DNA from: Tubiluchus corallicola
Lineage: Eukaryota; Animalia; Priapulida
DNA: 64,000 bases
Direction: 5' to 3'
NCBI GenBank assembly: GCA_030141605.1
Contig: JAQGDQ010000913.1
Coordinates: forward strand, 16,966-80,965
Below are positions 25,803-62,650 of this stretch, in pieces (position 1 is the first letter of the stretch; each line of letters opens with the position of its first letter). A program made the translations under genes and the position numbers. Under the pieces are notes generated by a model, which searched no databases, was not told the DNA's origin, and saw nothing but the letters and a program-made list of their open reading frames with translations.

Positions 25803-25990
25803 TTAGATCACTTACCTTCTCACAAAGTCAGATGACAAAACTAGAATGAATAATTTCTTGGGAGCACTTTCTACAGAGAATGCAGTAATAACACAGTTAG
25901 ATCACTTACCTTCTCACAAAGTCAGATGACAAAACTAGAATGAATAATTTCTTGGGAGCACTTTCTACAGAGAATGCAGTAATAACACAG
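25803..25990 (-). repeat. Exact 94-bp tandem duplication containing a candidate 55-nt exon (25910-25964 and 25816-25870)
   Basis: Two identical units, each with a CTCTGTAG acceptor, ESAPKKLFILVLSSDFVR in phase 1-2 and a GTAAGT donor. Confidence 0.7.
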
Positions 25991-61900: not shown

Positions 61901-62650
61901 CTTTATTATTCTCTTCAGAATAAACGACTTTGGAACATGAACGAAATAGTGAAGGCTTCCTGTACATAACAATACTTAACACAGCGGCTGGTAAAGTATA
62001 GTTCAAGAGTTCAGATGCTAAACCAACATATTATTCACAATGAAATAAGGCCATTAGCTGACATTGCTAATATATTCATTGTGGACAAAATACGTTTTTT
62101 GATAAGAAAGCCAACCAGCACGCAACCTTTGCAGCAGGTGAATGGGTAGCCAGCAAAAGAGTACAGTTACATGTACTATGTCTCTTAGGCAGGCCTATTA
62201 TTATTTGAGTTTGCTGTCAGTGTTTGCAAGCATGGATTTTTATTTCAAGAATTTCATACTCCAGCCCAGAACGTACCAGGTTCCCACATTTCGGTGTATG
62301 CTTCGCCGTTCCAGTGTTGAGGATCTCCAAAATTTTCGTAAAGACTGCCATCGTCCCAACGAAAGGTTTGGGACACTTCGTCATAAGTTACTCCCAACCA
62401 ATAATTTCCATCTGTTTTTATTTTCAAAGAAAGACTGTAAGTAAAAAACAATGTAAATATTCCAGTAGTAACTCAAATTGCAAGATTAAATTACCGCAAG
62501 TGAACAAAGATTTCTTAGACTTGAATAACAAAAGTTTACTGAGCAAAACTACAATACGTACTAATACTTACTAAGTGTGCTGAGCAAGGTAATCCCAAAC
62601 TTCTTGACTTTTAATTGTCGCCAAAGATGCCCCATGTTGCTTGCACTCGG
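25816..62650 (-). CDS. Large modular extracellular protein: tandem C-type lectin-like domains followed by 26 calcium-binding EGF repeats; 5' and 3' ends uncertain
   Basis: The reading frame can be followed through GT/AG-bounded exons from CTLD C' (55714) through A, B and C into the EGF array (42690-26314) without stops. Upstream A'/B' exons are partly broken. No signal-peptide exon was found and the terminal exon is uncertain. A' could belong to a separate paralogue. Confidence 0.8.
26314..42690 (-). CDS. Array of 26 intact cbEGF exons (phase 1-1; 150 bp, first one 144 bp)
   Basis: Exons: 42547-42690, 41317-41466, 40695-40844, 39827-39976, 39212-39361, 38374-38523, 37545-37694, 36766-36915, 35898-36047, 35661-35810, 35046-35195, 34178-34327, 33940-34089, 33703-33852, 33088-33237, 32851-33000, 32115-32264, 31877-32026, 31640-31789, 31029-31178, 30151-30300, 29283-29432, 29046-29195, 28431-28580, 28194-28343, 26314-26463. 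The consensus DINECDAASPTHDCDPVLANCSNTDGSFTCQCIDGTIDVSG.N.TGTICS has the D-x-N/D-E-C and C-x-N-T-x-G-S-F-x-C-x-C cbEGF signatures. Each exon is bounded by AG and GTAA. Confidence 0.95.
26585..26710 (-). pseudogene. Degenerate EGF pseudo-exon
   Basis: ANSAHNCHSIFANCT..(TA expansion/frameshift)..DGNFTCQCIGVTVDVSG; no intact acceptor, last Cys or donor. Confidence 0.75.
27460..28145 (-). mobile_element. Dispersed repeat family 1, copy 2 (inside an EGF-array intron)
   Basis: The reverse complement matches 3740-3975 (GGCTTTGCGTTAGGTAA.TAAAC.AACACT..GTAGGATGTTCGCG) and the (TA)n-TAAGATTCG head. Confidence 0.7.
41811..41860 (-). pseudogene. 5' fragment of an EGF exon
   Basis: Acceptor plus DINECDAANPTHDCDPQ (matches exon 32115-32264), then an abrupt join to the middle of an array intron. 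Confidence 0.75.
42219..42283 (-). pseudogene. 3' fragment of an EGF exon with donor
   Basis: CQCIDGTIDVSGQNATGTLC followed by GTAAG; the 5' half is absent. Confidence 0.75.
42797..42897 (+). repeat. (TTA)n microsatellite
   Basis: Seen directly. Confidence 0.95.
43489..45830 (-). CDS. CTLD C (three exons)
   Basis: 45620-45830 (VQHDCGFSTYNGRYKCLDKEGSAITYLEAQTACSSPRRLLEVTSPQD...), 44277-44451 (NHGNVWLSPRS...TPDGRT...WLGYSFWKTELIQSISK), 43489-43582 (RDFCVVAGANVHEAFECDGRGYAICEISKYI). Phases are 1-2, 2-0 and 0-1, and the last exon joins the first EGF exon in frame. Confidence 0.8.
44965..45365 (+). repeat. (TCA)n/(TCC)n microsatellites in a locally duplicated block
   Basis: Two tracts, both containing TTGGTAACAACAACAATAACA.CATCATCGCAACCATCA. 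Confidence 0.9.
46620..46747 (-). repeat. 43-bp repeat x3 derived from CTLD B exon-3 end plus donor
   Basis: The unit TTTGTGAGATG.CA.TGC..AGACA.GTGAG.TGC.ATG.GT spans the CEMPLPQT|GTGAG junction. Confidence 0.8.
46721..50729 (-). CDS. CTLD B (three exons)
   Basis: 50495-50729 (VDGNECPSGWTHFSNGSFSSCIEVF...AEWTCWRE...SLAKVDSEQKL), 47718-47848 (GNPKAWVGLMQYGNTSDWIQLLD...), 46721-46840 (GTNDKAGVIVLKESNTF...IEYAVCEMPLPQT). CPxGW, LA, WVGL and xxCE CTLD landmarks are present. Confidence 0.8.
48150..48409 (+). repeat. (TTA)n/(TAA)n microsatellite
   Basis: Seen directly; continues as (TTA)n at 49657-49784 beyond the insertion. Confidence 0.95.
48410..49656. mobile_element. Probable solo LTR (~1.25 kb) inserted in a (TTA)n microsatellite
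   Basis: TGTAA...TTACA termini; ATTAT on both sides (uninformative inside the microsatellite); non-coding, more GC-rich core. Confidence 0.6.
50105..50222 (+). repeat. (CA)n microsatellite
   Basis: Seen directly. Confidence 0.95.
51581..53107 (-). CDS. CTLD A (three exons)
   Basis: 52924-53107 (LCPEGFEGFVGGNGTISYCYKLSDSMPLNHLKAYYECKQQGASLAPIKTQE...), 52374-52504 (FWIGVTYDEVYQIFRSVDGSFYENY...MWEP), 51581-51736 (IMDKFCIVAELSYNYQWRKNICKY...VVCEHD). Confidence 0.88.
51865..52098 (-). mobile_element. Dispersed repeat family 1, copy 3 (head fragment)
   Basis: The reverse complement begins AATTCTACTGGTATGGGC and contains AAAAACCTCCA...TTTTTCGGCCGTTTTTT..GCAAAA as at 3408-3451. Confidence 0.7.
53791..55714 (-). 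CDS. CTLD C' (duplicate of CTLD C, three intact exons)
   Basis: 55504-55714, 54582-54756 and 53791-53887 (RDFCVGYADANVHEVSKCNDIRPGICEIEDHF). All are open with the same phases as CTLD C and splice in frame to CTLD A exon 1. Confidence 0.8.
56490..57158 (-). mobile_element. Dispersed repeat family 2 (TTAA-AGG terminus, Kolobok-like), copy a
   Basis: Diverged inverted copy of 58923-59581; both end at TTAA|AGGACAAGAAAAGGG. Confidence 0.6.
57221..57453 (+). repeat. (ACT)n microsatellite
   Basis: Seen directly. Confidence 0.95.
57454..58014 (-). repeat. 42-43-bp repeat x~13 derived from CTLD B' exon-3 end plus donor
   Basis: Same unit as 46620-46747, expanded. Confidence 0.9.
57988..58107 (-). 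CDS. Orphan third exon of CTLD B'
   Basis: Near-identical copy of 46721-46840 (GTNDKAGVILLKESNTFVLQSRKTNDSIEYAVCEMPLPQT) with intact AG/GT, phase 1-1. B' exon 2 was not found and B' exon 1 survives as only 8 nt (60587-60594). Confidence 0.55.
58923..59581 (+). mobile_element. Dispersed repeat family 2, copy b
   Basis: TTAA at 58919-58922 followed by AGGACAAGAAAAGGG; colinear with the reverse complement of 56490-57158. Confidence 0.6.
59909..60304. mobile_element. hAT-type MITE (396 bp)
   Basis: Perfect 14-bp TIR CAGGGCCTATTTCA / TGAAATAGGCCCTG; 8-bp flanks ACCATGGG vs ACCATGTC (6/8 match); G/C-run subterminal motifs. Confidence 0.85.
60587..61633 (+). repeat. Near-identical segmental copy of 50722-51768
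   Basis: About 1.05 kb colinear with only scattered substitutions; includes CTLD A exon 3 and the following intron. Confidence 0.92.
61446..62650 (-). CDS. CTLD A' (exon 1 truncated/interrupted; exons 2-3 intact)
   Basis: 62572-62650 (ECKQHGASLATIKSQEVWDYLAQHT, 5' half and acceptor absent locally), 62277-62434 (NYWLGVTYDEVSQTFRWDDGSLYENF...MWEP), 61446-61601 (apparently identical to 51581-51736). Confidence 0.65.

What the first reader, a model, noticed from the sequence alone, without database searches (positions are those of the whole stretch)
25816..62650. Candidate recognition protein: diversifying multi-CTLD head on a homogenised 26-unit cbEGF stalk
Seen: one - strand exon chain encodes at least four intact CTLDs (C', A, B, C; A' and B' partly broken) followed by 26 cbEGF exons. 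Every domain is a phase 1-1 module, so units can be gained, lost or skipped in frame. The head paralogues diverge at the protein level while the stalk repeats are almost identical, introns included. Established: CTLD-plus-EGF architectures occur in adhesion and immune receptors, and repeat homogenisation by concerted evolution is known in gamete-recognition receptors such as abalone VERL and sea urchin EBR1. Inference: this locus encodes a length-variable, rapidly evolving immune, allorecognition, gamete-recognition or adhesive protein. I do not recognise this architecture as a named gene.
Basis: partly seen in the sequence, partly recalled or inferred. Interest (0 to 1): 0.85.

Follow-up and report, generated by a model that had tools for sequence, protein, structure and literature searches.

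The report
Four lectin heads on EGF stalk
An invertebrate gene joins, in one unbroken predicted reading frame, four very different lectin-like domains to 26 copied calcium-binding EGF exons; it likely makes a secreted, long-stalked binding protein whose stalk would change length by unequal crossing-over, a familiar design in an unusually large form whose target is unknown.

Summary
The anatomy is real. On the minus strand, 12 lectin-domain exons (C', A, B, C) and 26 cbEGF exons of 150 nt join at GT-AG sites into 1,935 codons with no stop; every domain is phase 1-1. A' and B' upstream are broken.

Two claims need correcting. The stalk is near-identical only within three interleaved subtypes (91-100% nt; 74-83% between them), and it is under purifying selection (dN/dS about 0.24). 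The head is an old ABC triplet duplication patched by gene conversion. C and C' keep differences in predicted ligand-loop exons beside a 98%-identical intron, but positive selection is not shown (dN/dS 0.64 overall; 1.5 in exon C3, not significant). Only A and A' score clearly as C-type lectin domains, and no head has the sugar-binding motifs.

DNA runs of two samples hold both C and non-C forms and a high-depth EGF variant absent from the window. This points to more units or paralogues, but it is not a copy-number measurement. The 5' end lies outside the window, no membrane anchor was found, and expression is untested. Similar CTLD+cbEGF proteins exist in amphioxus, Lineus and flatworm adhesives.

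The parts
62572..62645 (-). A' exon 1, 3' half only (5' half absent from the window)
   Evidence: 83% nt to A1 over 69 nt; cryptic acceptor scores -3.9
62277..62434 (-). A' exon 2, intact, the most canonical CTLD loop exon
   Evidence: In frame with A'1 and A'3; a 44-aa part hits Pfam Lectin_C at E 0.019, below cut-off
61446..61601 (-). A' exon 3, phase 1-1, identical to A exon 3
   Evidence: 0 of 156 differences, inside a 1,047-bp block 98.7% identical
60587..60594 (-). B' exon 1 remnant (8 nt, then a break)
57988..58107 (-). B' exon 3, phase 1-1, orphan
   Evidence: 3 of 120 differences from B3
53791..55714 (-). Head domain C' (exons 55714-55504, 54756-54582, 53887-53791)
   Evidence: Open frame, six Cys; 85% aa to C
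51581..53107 (-). Head domain A, clear CTLD (exons 53107-52924, 52504-52374, 51736-51581)
   Evidence: hhalign probability 96%, E 1.8e-9 against a six-CTLD profile; 0 of 200 shuffles reach its score
46721..50729 (-). Head domain B, likely CTLD lacking the inner disulfide (exons 50729-50495, 47848-47718, 46840-46721)
   Evidence: HMM score 7.7, 0 of 200 shuffles reach it (max 7.0); hhalign E 0.016; Atlas 0.88 to Lectin_C clusters, a lead only
43501..45830 (-). Head domain C, likely CTLD (exons 45830-45620, 44451-44277, 43582-43501)
   Evidence: Atlas 0.93 for exon 1 to a cluster with Lectin_C in 11% of members; HMM score reached by 4 of 200 shuffles; six Cys at CTLD-like positions
26314..42696 (-). 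Array of 26 cbEGF exons E1-E26 (150 nt each): 15 alpha, 5 beta, 2 gamma, singles E1, E17, E25, E26
   Evidence: Pfam EGF_CA 35.2 and 37.9 bits against cut-off 27 for the 2 of 26 exons scanned
42219..42288 (-). Dead EGF exon remnant (3' half)
   Evidence: blastn 87% to E6
41814..41860 (-). Dead EGF exon remnant (5' third)
   Evidence: blastn 83% to E6
26580..26695 (-). Dead EGF exon remnant before E26
   Evidence: blastn 72% to E6
26219..26313 (-). Candidate 3' end: read-through of E26 stops after three codons, AATAAA at 26224
   Evidence: Seen in sequence; inference, no RNA

Best explanation
The locus is one predicted open reading frame of four lectin-like heads and 26 cbEGF units, and it likely encodes a secreted multivalent binding protein: the heads would grip targets on cells, microbes or matrix, and the calcium-stiffened, N-glycosylated EGF rod would act as a spacer. 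Shown: exon chain, phases, open frame, cbEGF consensus in 26 of 26 units, 43 N-glycosylation sequons, purifying selection on the stalk, mosaic exons. Inferred: (1) the stalk grows, shrinks and is homogenised by unequal crossing-over and gene conversion, with exchanges falling inside the exons, so any product stays in frame; (2) the head arose as an old A-B-C triplet duplication, of which A' and B' decayed and C' stayed intact, and later conversion copied patches between the two triplets; (3) the heads bind proteins or glycoconjugates without the classical calcium-sugar site, since EPN, QPD and WND (recalled motifs) are absent; (4) C and C' likely differ in target, because their differences cluster in the second half of exon 2 and in exon 3; (5) the protein is likely secreted and ends just after E26. 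A rod of about 65-80 nm follows from a recalled 2.5-3 nm per cbEGF.
For: Open frame and splice sites. EGF dN/dS 0.24 within alpha and 0.24 alpha vs beta; six Cys in 26 of 26; E16 lost Cys1 and gained a Cys three codons later. Alpha exons that precede the 87-nt intron carry gamma-type letters at their 3' end, and E25 is a beta/alpha hybrid. C vs C': intron 2 differs at 12 of 692 sites, exon 2 at 14 of 175 and exon 3 at 16 of 82 (Fisher p 1e-4, and 1e-5 for the first 76 nt of exon 3); such islands amid conversion are a proposed sign of selection (PMC3728101 passages). The 14 listed letters that separate C2 from C'2 recur together in runs X1 and X4, so the C form is shared across samples. Precedent for a secreted form that ends just after its last EGF: Lineus XP_064651727.1, one CTLD plus 6 cbEGF.
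Against: No transcript evidence. No signal-peptide exon stands out in the window, and the 5' end is beyond base 64000. B, C and C' are weak CTLD matches. dN/dS is below 1 for C vs C' overall (0.64) and the exon 3 excess is not significant (p 1.0). DNA flanking those exons is also diverged (13 of 106 after C3, 11 of 35 before C2), so neutral ends of a conversion tract could give the same islands. A3 and A'3, which encode the same part of the fold, are identical. Beta exons show dN/dS 1.1 on very few changes. The target is unknown.
Confidence: 0.55

Rival explanations
1. A structural or cohesive protein of an adhesive, mucus or matrix, like flatworm adhesion protein 1: the cbEGF array does the main work (calcium-dependent packing or cross-linking) and the lectin-like domains anchor it to a glycocalyx.
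For: Theama Tmed-ap1 (CTLD, vWD, C8, TIL, vWC, 19 EGF) was among the 150 EGF hits (PMC9229212 passages). No anchor found; heavy predicted glycosylation.
Against: No vWD, C8 or TIL exon lies between head and stalk; similarity to ap1 is domain-level only (45% over EGF stretches). Several very different heads suit recognition better than cohesion (inference).
Confidence: 0.2
2. A polymorphic gamete-recognition or allorecognition protein in the VERL layout: a positively selected tip on a homogenised repeat array.
For: Same layout as VERL (repeats 1-2 selected, 3-22 over 95% identical; PMC2704960 passages). HrVC70 uses 12 EGF repeats in self/nonself sperm binding (PMC9265791 passages). All 3 listed differences between the window and the runs in A exons change the amino acid, while all 4 listed in C' exon 1 are silent (only 40 of 351 rows were shown).
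Against: No ZP domain; no significant dN/dS above 1; the C2 form is shared by the window, X1 and X4 at all 14 listed sites; no gonad data.
Confidence: 0.12
3. A decaying or recently silenced copy in a multigene family; the diverged exon patches are neutral ends of conversion tracts.
For: Broken A' and B', three dead EGF remnants, loss of Cys1 in E16, no clear ends; other EGF variants at high depth in two samples suggest paralogues.
Against: 38 exons in a row keep frame and GT-AG sites; dN/dS 0.24 among recently copied alpha exons; the Cys lost in E16 is offset by a new one.
Confidence: 0.1
4. The array or the head duplication is an assembly artefact (false duplication of haplotypes or an expanded repeat).
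For: Tandem repeats are error-prone in assembly (general knowledge); no read spans the array here.
Against: 23 of 26 exons are distinct; A vs A' dS is about 1; EGF units are at high summed depth in two samples; X1 holds the C form (depth 10.2 of 48.9) beside other forms.
Confidence: 0.03

Closest known systems
Uncharacterised invertebrate CTLD + cbEGF proteins: Branchiostoma belcheri KAI8492289.1 (2 CTLD, 9 EGF, membrane helix) and Lineus longissimus XP_064651727.1 (1 CTLD, 6 cbEGF)
   Same: N-terminal CTLD(s) directly followed by tandem cbEGF; the Lineus protein ends just after its last EGF
   Different: Here at least four far more divergent heads and 26 recently copied units; only 51-53% identity over EGF stretches, so no orthology is shown
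Flatworm adhesion protein 1 (Tmed-ap1, UQT06002.1; PMC9229212, passages read)
   Same: Secreted, CTLD near the N-terminus, long EGF run (19) at the C-terminus
   Different: ap1 has one CTLD plus vWD, C8, TIL and vWC; none of these lies in this exon chain
Abalone VERL (PMC2704960 and PMC8830517, passages read)
   Same: Distinct N-terminal units on a repeat array homogenised by conversion or unequal crossing-over
   Different: VERL is built of ZP-N repeats with one homogeneous type over 95% identical and proven positive selection; here cbEGF exon-intron units of three interleaved types and no proven positive selection
Vertebrate group 14 CTLD proteins (thrombomodulin, CD93, CD248, CLEC14A; PMC6852297, passages read)
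   Same: CTLD held out on EGF repeats; roles in adhesion and recognition, some without calcium
   Different: One eight-Cys CTLD, a sushi domain (except thrombomodulin), 1-6 EGF, mucin stalk, membrane helix; not met here
Ascidian HrVC70/HaVC80 (PMC9265791, passages read)
   Same: Tandem EGF array whose unit number differs between species (12 vs 13)
   Different: No CTLD head; precursor has a ZP domain; variation lies in the EGF units themselves

Membership tests
Calcium-binding EGF (PF07645) | Six cysteines | tested here: met
   26 of 26; in E16 the first Cys is replaced by one three codons later
Calcium-binding EGF (PF07645) | D-x-[DN]-E before Cys1 and C-x-[DN]-x4-[FY]-x-C (consensus recalled) | tested here: met
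   Second motif 26 of 26; D-x-[DN]-E in all 26, followed by Cys in 25
Calcium-binding EGF (PF07645) | Pfam gathering score | tested here: met
   35.2 and 37.9 bits against 27 for the 2 of 26 exons scanned
C-type lectin-like domain | Profile match, domains A and A' | tested here: met
   31.1 and 27.6 bits, 0 of 200 shuffles each; hhalign 96%
C-type lectin-like domain | Profile match, domains B, C and C' | tested here: inconclusive
   7.7, 3.4 and 4.2 bits; 0, 4 and 5 of 200 shuffles reach them; hhalign E 0.016 and 0.089; Atlas 0.88 for B exon 1, 0.93 for C exon 1, nothing for B exon 2
C-type lectin-like domain | Four core cysteines (positions recalled) | tested here: inconclusive
   A, C and C' have six Cys in CTLD-like places; B has four and lacks the inner pair
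C-type lectin-like domain | Loop-in-loop fold | not testable with these tools
   Whole spliced domains were not folded; the B exon 1 half-domain model has pLDDT 48
Calcium-dependent sugar-binding C-type lectin | EPN or QPD plus WND (recalled) | tested here: not met
   Absent from 5 of 5 head domains
Group 14 CTLD receptors | Single eight-Cys CTLD, sushi domain, 1-6 EGF, mucin region, membrane helix | tested here: not met
   Four heads of 4-6 Cys, 26 EGF, no sushi or mucin exon in the chain; no convincing membrane exon downstream
Flatworm adhesion protein 1 | vWD-C8-TIL core between CTLD and EGF run | tested here: not met
   C exon 3 is followed by E1 after an 804-nt intron
Flatworm adhesion protein 1 | Expression in adhesive gland cells | not testable with these tools
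   No RNA holder listed
VERL-type gamete receptor | ZP-N repeats | tested here: not met
   Repeats are cbEGF
VERL-type gamete receptor | Positive selection on the tip units | tested here: inconclusive
   dN/dS 0.64 overall, 1.5 in exon C3 (p 1.0); exon islands beside a converted intron
VERL-type gamete receptor | Array homogenised above 95% identity | tested here: inconclusive
   Met on average within subtypes (96-97%), not between them (74-83%)

The most novel reading that the evidence does not exclude
A family of VERL-like recognition proteins built from other parts: several non-sugar-binding lectin folds whose ligand loops are kept different by selection against gene conversion, carried on cbEGF rods whose length and subtype order differ between haplotypes and paralogues, so that both specificity and reach of an immune or self/non-self receptor are set by exon arithmetic.
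Probability: 0.15. Interest if true: 0.72.

Novelty: new variant of a known kind. Interest (0 to 1): 0.4.

Why it matters
CTLD-plus-EGF proteins and homogenised exon arrays are both known. This gene combines them at unusual scale and shows both processes side by side: in-frame stalk turnover under purifying selection, and conversion between head copies that spares the predicted binding loops of C and C'. If long reads show length alleles and selected loops, it offers a direct test of whether the reach and the specificity of an invertebrate recognition protein evolve separately. Without expression, ends or a ligand it remains a well-formed lineage-specific modular gene.

Tried and rejected
No whole genome is held, so paralogues and the 5' end could not be searched. 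Homologue searches with B exon 1 and A' exon 2 found nothing (weak evidence). PDB sequence searches with B1 and C1 gave no lectin. Pfam missed 6 of the 7 head exon pieces scanned at E 0.1. The best EGF relatives reach only 40-59% identity; 5 of those 150 carry a CTLD by my three-domain seed profile, Pfam confirmed 3 of them (P0090, P0079, P0061) at E 1e-5, and for P0068 the paper names the domain. The neighbouring ankyrin protein did not identify the phylum. No RNA holder was listed; the RNA-guess run X6 lay only on a repeat; neither is evidence on expression. X5 laid 4 records on the EGF stretch, uninformative. A hydrophobic 30-residue frame after an acceptor at 25788 was rejected as an anchor: 3 of 31 acceptors inside head introns give the same. 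The 94-bp duplicate at 25803-25996 has a good donor but no stop-free phase 1-1 exon. The half-domain fold of B1 was too poor to search with. Summed contig depth was not used as a copy number. Paper searches for this architecture found no description: 0 papers; listings only, none on such a gene; subscription journals are mostly not covered. PMC6738811 is not held. No supplements were read.
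Full report
What is there. The window is AT-rich animal DNA (29-39% GC); no whole genome is held. On the minus strand I located 16 head exons and 26 EGF exons. The chain C'(3 exons), A(3), B(3), C(3), E1-E26 uses GT-AG sites throughout and reads 1,935 codons without a stop. Adding A'1-3 and B'3 gives 2,105 codons, still without a stop. 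Each three-exon head and each 150-nt EGF exon enters and leaves in phase 1; A3 and B3 are symmetric on their own. Intron DNA of these lengths is stop-free in a given frame only 0.7-22% of the time, so the frame is not chance, although I chose the exon ends by eye.

The stalk. All 26 units have six cysteines and the calcium-binding consensus, with 43 N-glycosylation sequons in all; the two exons scanned pass Pfam EGF_CA. They are not one homogeneous repeat. There are 15 alpha, 5 beta and 2 gamma copies and four single types; identity is 91-100% nt within a subtype and 74-83% between the three subtypes. Introns fall into four classes (about 700, 465, 87 and 88 nt), each 94-99% identical within the class. 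Exons are mosaics: alpha exons that precede the 87-nt intron carry gamma-type letters at their 3' end, and E25 is beta at the front and alpha-like at the back. Blocks of several units recur at 90-95% over 1.7-2.5 kb, and three dead exon fragments sit at the array edges. This is the pattern expected from unequal crossing-over inside exons (inference). Selection is purifying: dN/dS 0.24 within alpha and between alpha and beta; beta alone gives 1.1 on very few changes. E16 has lost its first cysteine and gained one three codons later, which suggests a folded product.

The head. A and A' are clear CTLDs against a profile of six CTLD-like domains cut from fetched proteins. B, C and C' have CTLD landmarks but weak scores; the Atlas points C exon 1 (0.93) and B exon 1 (0.88) to clusters in which 11% of members carry Lectin_C, and gives nothing for B exon 2. 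I treat them as likely, very divergent CTLDs. None of the five has EPN, QPD or WND (recalled motifs), so classical calcium-sugar binding is unlikely; not all CTLDs bind calcium or sugar (PMC6852297 passages). A, B and C share only 15-22% in a forced alignment.

History of the head. The order A'B'C'ABC is a triplet duplication. It is old: A vs A' dS is about 1.06 and most flanks differ by 17-37%. It is patched by later exchange: a 1,047-bp block with A3 is 98.7% identical, B3 97.5%, C1 96.7%. In C vs C' the second intron differs at 12 of 692 sites while exon 2 differs at 14 of 175, all in its last 92 nt, and exon 3 at 16 of 82 (p 1e-4, and 1e-5 for the first 76 nt of exon 3). Islands of exon divergence amid conversion can mark selection (PMC3728101 passages). 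Against that: I picked the contrast after seeing it, the outer flanks are diverged too, overall dN/dS is 0.64, the exon 3 value of 1.5 is not significant, and the equivalent exon of A and A' is identical. 'Diversifying' is therefore a hint.

Other samples. Six runs were listed, none on record as an RNA holder. X1-X3 are one sample and may be the window's source; X4 is another sample and study and covers introns, so it behaves as DNA. Both X1 and X4 hold a contig with all 14 listed letters that distinguish C2 from C'2; in X1 it is 10.2 of 48.9 depth, so other C-like forms exist beside it. On an EGF stretch, X1, X2 and X4 share a gamma/beta-like doublet with three letters found in no window copy (two in the 87-nt intron, one Thr to Ser); its contigs have depth about 150 in X1 and 106 in X4, against about 12-19 and 8-15 over the A domain. 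The 465-nt intron, six copies in the window, has depth 37 and 11. These genomes thus seem to hold more units of this family than the window does, in other proportions. Contig depth is not copy number, and the data cannot tell paralogous loci from longer alleles. Of the listed differences from the window, 3 of 3 in A exons change the residue and 4 of 4 in C' exon 1 are silent; only 40 of 351 rows were shown.

Ends. No convincing signal-peptide exon lies upstream of C' in the window, and A' exon 1 is cut, so the gene start is beyond base 64000. Downstream I found no membrane exon better than chance. Read-through of E26 stops after three codons with AATAAA 90 nt on; a Lineus CTLD + 6 cbEGF protein also ends just after its last EGF. 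Secreted is my best guess.

Comparison. No close relative was found. The same domain order occurs in amphioxus KAI8492289.1 and Lineus XP_064651727.1, and with a vWD core in flatworm adhesion protein 1. The layout resembles VERL (PMC2704960 passages), but the domains differ and selection is unproven. It fails the defining features of group 14 receptors, ap1 and ZP-type egg-coat proteins. Five paper searches for this architecture returned no description of it. Unreviewed notes of this scan describe comparable EGF exon arrays in other animals, so the design looks recurrent; I did not test those notes.

Verdict. A real, probably functional, lineage-specific gene: a new variant of a known kind. 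Gene structure is high confidence; the secreted multivalent-binder model is 0.55; immune, adhesive or gamete role is open. Interest 0.40.

Noticed in passing
window 11964-14567 (+): Intronless 868-codon frame with N-terminal ankyrin repeats (Pfam Ank_2 E 6.6e-53) and a C-terminal end that resembles a SOCS box (recalled, not hit by Pfam); database hits cover mostly the ankyrin part.
   Followed up: partly
window 3895-9830 (+): Trypsin-family protease gene in pieces with His, Asp and Ser motifs; the end of the His-bearing exon is repeated 3.8 times as a 93-bp unit at 4096-4444.
   Followed up: no
window 21273-24715 (-): Decayed retrotransposon-like stretch: integrase-core match (E 0.0023) with stops, between two 600-bp direct repeats 85% alike.
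   Followed up: no
window 57454-58014 and 46627-46747: A 43-bp minisatellite (13 and 2.8 copies) made from the last 33 nt of exon B'3/B3 plus its donor site, which offers several alternative donors.
   Followed up: partly
window 32851-33000 (-): EGF exon E16 has Cys1 replaced by Phe and a new Cys three codons later, keeping six cysteines.
   Followed up: yes
window 55221-55325 (-): Partial copies of the 3' end of exon C'1 with its donor, just inside the next intron.
   Followed up: no
window 25803-25996: 94-bp tandem duplicate, 99% alike, each copy holding an AG-GTAAGT donor; not shown to belong to the gene.
   Followed up: partly
window 56490-57162 and 58919-59581: Inverted pair of a very high-copy repeat (73% alike; summed depth over 20,000 in X1) around the broken B' region.
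   Followed up: no
window 5820-6104 (+): Fragment resembling the end of a LINE-type reverse transcriptase (DUF6451, E 0.01) inside the protease gene.
   Followed up: no
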